From Mustelus asterias (Eukaryota), in the NCBI RefSeq assembly GCF_964213995.1, contig NW_027590137.1, positions 62,001 through 126,000 of the forward strand: 64,000 nucleotides of DNA. The letters run 5' to 3'. Both the position numbers and the translations under genes were made by a program. Numbering within the stretch: the stretch's first letter is position 1; each line of letters begins with the position of its first letter. Below the pieces are notes generated by a model. The model was not told the DNA's origin. It worked only from the letters and a program-made list of their open reading frames with translations, and did no database searches. Of the stretch, positions 18,849-19,624 are shown piece after piece.

Positions 18849-19178
18849 GTGTCCAGTCGGAGATTGTGTTGACTCAGCCAGAGGCAGAGACTGGGCATCC
18901 CGGATACTCCCTGAGACTGACCTGTAAAACCAACGGCTTCAAGCTTGGCAGCGCGTACATGCACTGGGTCCGACAGGTTCCCGGACAGGGGCTGGAGTGG
19001 TTGGTTTACTACTATAGTTCATCAAGCAACAACTACGCCCCAGCAATTAAGAATCGATTTACTGCGTCCAAAGACACTTCAAACAATATCTTCGTTTTGG
19101 ACATGACGAACCTGAAGACTGAAGACACCGCCATCTATTACTGTGCATTGGACGTATACAGCAGTATACCTGGGACCG
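18849..19178 (+). CDS. IGHV: IgM VH exon fused to D-derived sequence (germline-joined VD/VDD)
   Basis: Acceptor [47 protein letters not shown] then [10 protein letters not shown] in frame; no 23-RSS after YYC. Confidence 0.95.
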
Positions 19179-19206
19179 CACAGCAGTTACTGTCAATACA
19201 AAAATC
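19179..19206 (+). promoter_or_regulatory. 12-spacer RSS (3' of D type)
   Basis: CACAGCA + 12 nt GTTACTGTCAAT + ACAAAAATC. Confidence 0.9.
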
Positions 19207-19537
19207 CCTCAGCACTAATTGGCCCAGGCTGGGTCAGTGCTCTGTTTTACAATCCAAAAATATTTGCAGTGCTGTATTATTTATGTCCAACTCTGCACAA
19301 GTAGCGAGAATTAGGATGGAAAATTTATGAAAACTATTCAATTATCAGCTGGCGTTTTCAATAAAATGTCCATTTGATGCTTTGTGATATATAAAACTTT
19401 CGGGTCAATTATGAAGAGCGAACGGTCTCCACAAATACAATAATAATTTCATGGAAATTAATTGACTTTGCTTTTCCTCTGGTTTGTGAATATTTAAAAT
19501 AATGGTGGCTTTTCTGTCTATTTTTTTTTGCAGGGAC

Positions 19538-19576
19538 GGTTATTGTATGACCCAGCCAAGGGAATGTGACACTGTG
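19538..19576 (-). promoter_or_regulatory. 23-spacer RSS of JH
   Basis: GGTTATTGT + 23 nt + CACTGTG directly 5' of J. Confidence 0.93.
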
Positions 19577-19624
19577 ACTACTTTGACGACTGGGGACAAG
19601 GGACCATGGTGACGGTGACTGCAG
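19577..19624 (+). CDS. IGHJ: JH segment
   Basis: YFDDWGQGTMVTVTA, phase-1 donor GTAAGA. Confidence 0.96.

What the first reader, a model, noticed from the sequence alone, without database searches (positions are those of the whole stretch)
18849..19624. Germline-joined VD(D)-J IgM: pre-built CDR3, one RAG step remaining
Seen: after YYC-A the sequence runs TTGGACGTATACAGCAGTATACCTGGGACCG into a 12-RSS, with no V 23-RSS and no separate D segments. About 330 bp later are an intact 23-RSS and JH. The joint is in frame ([12 protein letters not shown]) and the usual CAR end is trimmed. Established: shark IgM clusters are V-23/12-D1-23/12-D2-12/23-J, and germline-joined VDD-J and VDDJ genes attributed to germ-cell RAG activity are known in sharks and skates. 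Inference: the trailing 12-RSS is that of D2, so two joins are inherited. The locus would encode semi-invariant IgM diversified only at D-J. The class is known; this gene may not be.
Basis: partly seen in the sequence, partly recalled or inferred. Interest (0 to 1): 0.8.

Follow-up and report, generated by a model that had tools for sequence, protein, structure and literature searches.

The report
Two-thirds pre-joined shark IgM gene
This is an intact shark IgM antibody gene in which two of the three cut-and-join steps normally done in B cells are already in the DNA, almost certainly inherited, so it would likely need only one more join; this is a known shark habit and one of many such genes in this genome.

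Summary
Observation confirmed. V is fused to D1 and D2 remnants, followed by D2's 12-RSS, a 23-RSS and J. Leader, four Cμ exons, secretory tail and both TM exons are intact. The join is almost certainly inherited: a second 99.96%-identical copy on another contig carries it, and public-run contigs bridge it at the depth of the gene's other unique parts. It is one of many: 30 of 74 cluster loci classified carry a pre-made join, 9 of them VDD-J. The class is published, and this scan has noted it before on other DNA. One oddity: 10 of 11 other joints scored need at most one non-germline base, whereas this one has about 7 at V-D1 and 4 beside the RSS. I read these mainly as later substitutions in an old join; TdT addition in germ cells is the less likely rival. 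Expression is untested, and horn shark joined heavy chains were reported as not detected. New member of a known kind.

The parts
18561..18662 (+). TATA-like box and 5' untranslated region (TATA label from inspection)
   Evidence: 0 private substitutions in 145 scored sites of 18561-18708 against 22 sister loci
18663..18708 (+). Leader exon
   Evidence: ATG, hydrophobic peptide, GT donor at 18709, splices in frame to V
18849..19147 (+). VH exon to one codon past the second Cys
   Evidence: Open frame; Pfam V-set E 2.9e-18; mostly 70-86% identical to sister V proteins
19148..19155 (+). V-D1 joint: either 7 non-templated bases plus 1 P base, or the untrimmed V end with one codon changed (Arg to Leu) plus 2 P bases
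   Evidence: Comparison with 49 free V ends; the same 2-base P pattern follows an untrimmed V in VDDJ locus L071
19156..19165 (+). D1 remnant, first 10 of 14 bases
   Evidence: Exact match to the commonest D1 (26 of 37)
19166..19178 (+). D2 remnant: 9 bases match a free D2 allele, the last 4 differ from the usual D2 end
   Evidence: L171 free D2; 46 of 46 free D2s listed end in TGG, this one does not
19179..19206 (+). D2 3' recombination signal, 12-base spacer
   Evidence: Heptamer and spacer as in most sisters; nonamer has one C-to-T change shared only with L050
19538..19576 (-). JH recombination signal, 23-base spacer
   Evidence: Perfect heptamer, nonamer as in many sisters
19577..19624 (+). 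JH segment
   Evidence: WGQG motif and GT donor; one private change, Tyr to Asp, at 19588
31111..31410 (+). Cμ1 exon
   Evidence: Open, AG/GT ends; C1-set
31619..31933 (+). Cμ2 exon (present, unlike IgM1gj)
   Evidence: 79% identical to the second C domain of a named Triakis IgM heavy chain
35952..36251 (+). Cμ3 exon
   Evidence: Open, AG/GT ends; C1-set
37162..37544 (+). Cμ4 plus secretory tail; internal donor for the membrane form after 37482; AATAAA at 37570 and 37579
   Evidence: 88% identical to Triakis IgM with a 3-residue in-frame deletion
43614..43741 (+). TM1 exon
   Evidence: Acceptor and donor conserved in sisters; membrane form translates open
43880..43888 (+). TM2 exon (two residues and stop)
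   Evidence: Conserved in three sister clusters

Best explanation
This is an intact shark IgM heavy-chain cluster whose V, D1 and D2 are already fused, almost certainly in the inherited DNA and likely by RAG cutting in the germ line of an ancestor; the remaining 12/23 signal pair would let a B cell finish the gene with one D2-J join. Shown: the fused layout, the origin of the pieces, the intact exons and signals, and the presence of the join in both assembled copies. Inferred: RAG as the agent (ends fall at signal borders with trimming and P bases, as in the published model), an old age of the join with later substitutions explaining its odd bases, and completion in B cells. If completed, the product would be an IgM whose CDR3 starts with a fixed stretch of up to 11 residues and varies only at the D-J border (14-16 residues in the no-addition joins listed).
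For: Layout and parse. Inheritance: contig C597 matches the whole window at 99.96% (17 mismatches, 3 gap openings in 64 kb) with the same junction. A run contig spans 19118-19486 with 0 differences at depth 44.9 beside 43.8, 46.4 and 45.1 for other exact pieces of the gene in X1, at 40.4 in X3, and 19118-19505 in X2, another sample. No hypermutation footprint: 4 of 65 private substitutions are adjacent, 4.1 expected at random. Integrity: secreted (573 residues) and membrane forms translate open after a precise join; C-region pN/pS 0.36-0.38 against three sisters. Continued RAG-type use of half-joined clusters: VDD-J L049 shares its D1-D2 joint with V-DD-J L044/L063, 2 differences in 1260 sites; L023 likewise with L059, 6 in 1260. 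Literature: PMC2193156, PMC5192425, PMC4279169; precedent for finishing a part-joined cluster in IgNAR type III (PMC4622739).
Against: No expression data. PMC2193156 reports that expression of germline-joined heavy chains in horn shark was not detected. Purifying selection may date from before the join, so intact exons do not show that the joined form works. All four runs laid are one study, one sample may be the assembly's source, tissues are not on record, a bridging piece was listed for 3 of 4 runs, and the tool warns that contig depth is no share of cells. The two contig copies may be alleles or a recent duplicate. The 'later substitution' reading needs about 6 changes in two tight groups; codons with three changes from consensus are only 8 of 819 CDR codons in 39 sister V genes. 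Somatic VDD-J intermediates are common in nurse shark thymocytes (PMC2435157), so the layout alone does not prove inheritance.
Confidence: 0.75

Rival explanations
1. The join is inherited but the cluster is a silent dead end that is rarely or never completed or expressed.
For: Joined horn shark heavy-chain genes were reported as not detected in expression (PMC2193156 passage). The gene has private oddities: a 3-residue deletion in Cμ4, Tyr to Asp in J, a nonamer change. Joined clusters are abundant here (30 of 74), as expected of accidents.
Against: No stop, frameshift or broken splice site in any exon; promoter-proximal region without private changes; near-identical V-DD-J and VDD-J pairs suggest half-joined clusters stay cuttable. 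IgNAR type III is part-joined and expressed in neonates.
Confidence: 0.35
2. The odd bases are true N additions: the V-D1 join was made with TdT active in the germ line, and D2's 3' end was cut, trimmed, extended and resealed to its own signal (an open-and-shut joint).
For: Read literally, 7 bases at V-D1 and 4 beside the 12-RSS match no germline end. This D2 end differs from 46 of 46 free D2s. Other clusters have altered D2 ends next to retained signals (L038/L054, L050).
Against: 10 of 11 other joints scored need 0-1 unexplained bases; the eleventh (L050, score 6) reads by eye as three substitutions. PMC2193156 found little evidence of TdT in germline light-chain joints. The last three V bases and a P base sit in exact register inside the 'N' stretch, and the D2 piece has the usual 13-base length. 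A catshark protein with the same layout keeps Arg-Asp at that register and has Pro-Gly-Ala where this gene has Pro-Gly-Thr, which fits stepwise change, though orthology is not shown.
Confidence: 0.15
3. The join is somatic (a lymphocyte intermediate) or an assembly error.
For: VDD-J is a frequent somatic intermediate in nurse shark thymocytes and occurs in B cells (PMC2435157). An N-rich-looking joint would suit a lymphocyte. Source tissue is unknown.
Against: Identical joint on two contigs that differ at 17 other sites; bridging contigs at the same depth as the rest of the gene and in a second sample; no unjoined copy above 90% identity among the 40 best matches in the genome; no tandem-mutation signature.
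Confidence: 0.02
4. Ordinary deletions or gene conversion, not RAG, removed the two spacers.
For: The clusters are mosaics: the nearest sister changes from segment to segment, so conversion occurs among them.
Against: Both deletions end at or within a few bases of coding ends, and the other joints listed in this genome do the same, some with P bases. Introns are retained, which excludes retroposition.
Confidence: 0.04

Closest known systems
Partially germline-joined IgM clusters of horn shark and skates (VD, VDD, VD-J, VD-DJ); PMC2193156 passages and section 24, PMC5192425 and PMC4279169 passages; original report by Kokubu et al. 1988 recalled, not read
   Same: Cluster layout, inherited partial joins at signal borders, remaining signal pair, mixture of joined and split clusters in one genome.
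   Different: A different gene and joint. This joint has more non-germline bases than the other 11 scored in this genome. Expression unknown.
Nurse shark IgNAR type III (PMC4622739 passages)
   Same: Part-joined in the germ line (D1-D2), fewer somatic joins, restricted CDR3. It is the working model for how this gene would act.
   Different: IgNAR, not IgM; V is still free and three joins remain; neonatal expression is reported there and untested here.
Nurse shark IgM1gj (PMC4279169, PMC5192425 passages)
   Same: IgM with an inherited V-region join.
   Different: IgM1gj is fully VDJ-joined and lacks Cμ2; this gene keeps D-J open and has Cμ2.
Somatic VDD-J (2R) intermediates of nurse shark lymphocytes (PMC2435157 passages)
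   Same: Same DNA configuration.
   Different: Those are cell-specific and often hypermutated with tandem changes; this one is in both assembled copies and lacks that footprint.

Membership tests
Partially germline-joined elasmobranch IgM cluster (VDD-J) | Leader-V-D-J followed by four Cμ exons, secretory tail and TM exons in one cluster | tested here: met
   88% and 79% identity to a named Triakis IgM
Partially germline-joined elasmobranch IgM cluster (VDD-J) | V-D1 and D1-D2 spacers with their signals removed, coding ends fused | tested here: met
   Probes for both spacers find no match; D1 and D2 remnants identified
Partially germline-joined elasmobranch IgM cluster (VDD-J) | D2 3' 12-RSS and JH 23-RSS retained | tested here: met
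Partially germline-joined elasmobranch IgM cluster (VDD-J) | Join is inherited, not somatic | tested here: met
   Two contig copies and equal contig depth; indirect, since tissue is not on record and all runs are one study
Partially germline-joined elasmobranch IgM cluster (VDD-J) | Made by RAG in germ cells | not testable with these tools
   Inferred from joint anatomy and from PMC2193156
IgM1gj | Complete VDJ join in the germ line | tested here: not met
   D-J spacer and both signals present
IgM1gj | Lacks Cμ2 | tested here: not met
   Cμ2 exon 31619-31933 intact
IgNAR type III-like semi-invariant receptor | IgNAR isotype | tested here: not met
   Constant region is IgM
IgNAR type III-like semi-invariant receptor | Completed somatically and expressed with restricted CDR3 | not testable with these tools
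   No RNA run of this species was available to lay
Somatic 2R VDD-J intermediate | Present in a minority of cells, on one allele | tested here: not met
Somatic 2R VDD-J intermediate | Often carries tandem hypermutation through V and the D-J spacer | tested here: not met
   4 of 65 private substitutions adjacent, 4.1 expected by chance

The most novel reading that the evidence does not exclude
This is an old, working, semi-invariant IgM: B cells finish it with one D2-J join, its inherited half-CDR3 has been reshaped codon by codon under selection, and a related VDD-J gene persists in the cloudy catshark. It would be the IgM counterpart of neonatal IgNAR type III and a direct test of whether half-joined heavy-chain genes are used.
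Probability: 0.2. Interest if true: 0.6.

Novelty: new member of a known kind. Interest (0 to 1): 0.3.

Why it matters
The class is known, so the gene alone changes little. It is, however, a good marker for an open point: whether half-joined shark heavy-chain genes are ever finished and expressed. It is intact, about 10% diverged from every sister examined, and has a unique junction tag, so one repertoire experiment could answer the question. The wider census (30 of 74 loci joined, joints almost free of added bases, pairs that show joins accumulating stepwise) supports repeated RAG activity without TdT in this lineage's germ line.

Tried and rejected
Expression: the run search returned no RNA holder listed, which is no evidence either way. 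Hypermutation fixed in the germ line: rejected; adjacent private changes are at chance level, and an apparent triple change in CDR1 is one step from an allele in 10 of 39 sisters. Broken TM acceptor: suspected, then rejected, as the acceptor at 43614 is shared with sisters. IgM1gj: rejected (Cμ2 present, D-J open). Same joint in other species: four runs of four other organisms were laid; no listed piece carried this joint. One contig each in X7 and X13 bridged V to a signal-like stretch but was 7 bases shorter with 17-18 differences and stopped matching after the nonamer, so it is a different joined gene; the table was cut, so a hole proves nothing. Protein searches (15 of 24 and 5 of 23 candidates passed) found no sequence with this junction. 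Local templates for the odd bases: an exact 7-base inverted match at 19065 and a 9-base direct match at 18581 exist, but in a 2.4 kb search made after the fact they are within chance. A free D2 with this 3' end: the pattern search gave 8 matches, 2 being this gene's copies; 4 of the other 6 were read and were not Ig signals. Guessed V positions for five further C-region relatives gave no V in 9 stretches. PMC3190574 was not held; PMC2191167 (abstract passage only) and PMC12227049 (passages) added nothing. Supplements were not opened.

Full report
Observation. The window holds one IgM heavy-chain cluster. A leader exon (18663-18708) splices in frame to a V exon starting at 18849. After the second Cys (19142-19144) come 34 bases and then a 12-spacer signal (19179-19206), 331 bases, a 23-spacer signal facing it (19538-19576) and J (19577-19624). 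Four constant exons, the secretory tail and two TM exons follow, all open with normal splice sites; secreted and membrane forms translate without a stop after a precise D-J join. Cμ4 and Cμ2 are 88% and 79% identical to a named Triakis IgM heavy chain.

What the junction is made of. Sister clusters in the same genome give the germline parts. Unjoined ones have V-to-J distances of about 1210-1260 bases against 446 here. Bases 19156-19165 are the first 10 bases of the commonest D1 (26 of 37 free D1s). Bases 19166-19174 are the first 9 bases of a free D2 allele found in locus L171. The trailing signal has the heptamer and spacer of the sisters' D2 3' signal.

Is it inherited? Contig C597 carries a second copy that matches the whole window at 99.96% (17 mismatches, 3 gap openings) with the same junction. 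In run X1 a contig spans 19118-19486 with no difference at depth 44.9, next to 43.8, 46.4 and 45.1 for other exact pieces of the gene; X3 (same sample) gives 40.4; X2 (another sample, same study) also bridges it; no bridging piece was listed for X4. The best other match in the genome to the D-J region is 90%, so no unjoined version of this cluster was seen among 40 scored of 91 candidates. Limits: one study, tissue unknown, one sample may be the assembly source, and the tool warns that depth is no share of cells. Somatic VDD-J molecules are well known in nurse shark thymocytes (PMC2435157, passages), but they would not give one identical joint on two copies. I put inheritance at about 0.97.

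How common is it here? Pattern searches found 58 D2 3' signals and 50 J motifs. Of 74 loci classified with spacer probes, 43 were unjoined, 9 VDD-J, 9 VD-D-J, 7 V-DD-J, 3 V-D-DJ, 1 VDDJ, 1 D1-D2 joined with the J side missing (L037) and 1 truncated (L153): 30 of 74 carry a join. The set includes duplicate copies, is biased to loci that keep the D2 signal or J motif, and is not the whole repertoire. The 9 VDD-J loci have 6 distinct joints, all stop-free in the V frame. Two near-identical pairs suggest stepwise joining: L049 (VDD-J) shares its D1-D2 joint with L044/L063 (V-DD-J), 2 differences in 1260 sites, and L023 with L059, 6 in 1260.

What is unusual about this gene. It is a lone, older lineage, 9.9% from its nearest sister over V, leader intron and D-J spacer. 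Of 11 other VD or VDD joints scored, 10 need at most one unexplained base; L050 scored 6 but reads by eye as three substitutions (V-DD-J, V-D-DJ, VDDJ and L156-158 joints were read by eye only). This joint has 7 unexplained bases at V-D1 and 4 beside the signal, where 46 of 46 free D2s end in TGG; the script's score of 19 is inflated because it anchored D2 at its 3' end and lacked the L171 allele. Two parses exist. In one, TdT added bases and D2's end was opened and resealed. In the other, V is untrimmed with two P bases (the pattern seen in L071), D2 is full length, and two codons later changed (Arg to Leu; Val or Trp-end to Thr). I favour the second: the last three V bases and a P base lie in register, the D2 piece has the commonest length, other joints lack N bases, and PMC2193156 reports little evidence of TdT in germline joints (passages). 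Against it, three-base codon changes are rare, 8 of 819 CDR codons in 39 sister V genes. A predicted protein of Scyliorhinus torazame (P0002, name as given by the source) shows the same layout, reading from V through a Pro-Gly-Ala end into the 12-signal in the same frame, 76% identical overall and with a different junction. Its DNA could not be fetched, so orthology is open. Germline-fixed hypermutation was tested and rejected (4 of 65 private changes adjacent, 4.1 expected).

Would it work? The remaining signals are a proper 12/23 pair with one nonamer change shared with L050. The promoter-proximal region has no private change. The C region shows pN/pS of 0.36-0.38 against three sisters, though that selection may predate the join. 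A single join would give a CDR3 with a fixed start and 14-16 residues in the no-addition examples listed. The precedent is IgNAR type III, part-joined and expressed in neonates (PMC4622739, passages). The counterweight is that expression of joined horn shark heavy chains was not detected (PMC2193156). I put completion and expression at about even odds.

Comparison with what is known. [quoted passage not shown] The original horn shark report (Kokubu 1988) is recalled, not read. The gene meets the tested features of a VDD-J IgM cluster and fails those of IgM1gj. Searches listed no paper on this gene or on completion of an inherited VDD-J IgM, but the library lacks most subscription journals, where much shark immunology is printed. 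Earlier notes of this scan describe the same class in this and other genomes; a search by sequence found none for this stretch.

Verdict. Real, correctly read by the first stage, almost certainly inherited, and a new member of a known kind. Interest 0.3, for its intactness, odd junction and value as a tagged test case.

Noticed in passing
L049 with L044/L063; L023 with L059: VDD-J clusters share their D1-D2 joint with near-identical V-DD-J clusters (2 and 6 differences in 1260 sites), which suggests germline joins accumulate one at a time over generations.
   Followed up: partly
L001-L030, L037-L073, L096, L153-L158: 30 of 74 IgM-type loci carry pre-made joins of five kinds; the joints are almost free of added bases, some with P bases.
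   Followed up: partly
window 17990-20200 and L097, L100, L116: Long-branch clusters have more private substitutions in non-coding DNA downstream of the leader than upstream: window 1.3% vs 4.2% (p 0.001), L100 0.4% vs 4.1%, L116 1.8% vs 4.9%, L097 1.4% vs 2.8% (not significant). Upstream constraint, conversion or transcription-linked germline mutation are all possible.
   Followed up: partly
L038/L054, L050, L037/L040/L056, L070: Altered D segments beside retained signals: a 9-base D2, a 17-base D2, D1's 5' signal fused straight to D2, and a D2 replaced by a D1-like sequence. Open-and-shut joints or conversion are candidates.
   Followed up: no
P0002: A hypothetical protein of Scyliorhinus torazame is a V read through a VDD junction into the 12-signal, so it is likely an unrecognised VDD-J cluster in that genome.
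   Followed up: partly
runs X7 and X13 laid on window 19070-19290: One low-depth contig in each of two other organisms bridges V to a signal-like stretch with largely the same differences from the window, hinting at a pre-joined gene shared between those two species.
   Followed up: no
run X15 laid on window 19070-19290: A loose end after V reads like about 13 non-germline bases followed by a D2-like stretch, a possibly N-rich joint in another organism's DNA; germline or somatic is unknown.
   Followed up: no
window 37162-37544, 31619-31933, 43614-43741, 18709-18848: Private or subfamily changes: 3-residue deletion in Cμ4, Cys to Trp in Cμ2 (shared with several sisters), Trp to Arg near the membrane (shared with the C124 cluster), 10-base insertion in the leader intron.
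   Followed up: partly
L096 (G000 C124): The cluster closest at the TM exons (95%) is itself part-joined in a different way (V-D1-D2J), while its V region is no closer than other sisters, showing mosaic cluster history.
   Followed up: partly
window 32387-34720, 39930-42500, 51872-52786, 60119-62266: Long reading frames that look like LINE-type reverse transcriptase elements, two of them inside the IgM introns; the label is recalled from motifs and was not tested by a call.
   Followed up: no
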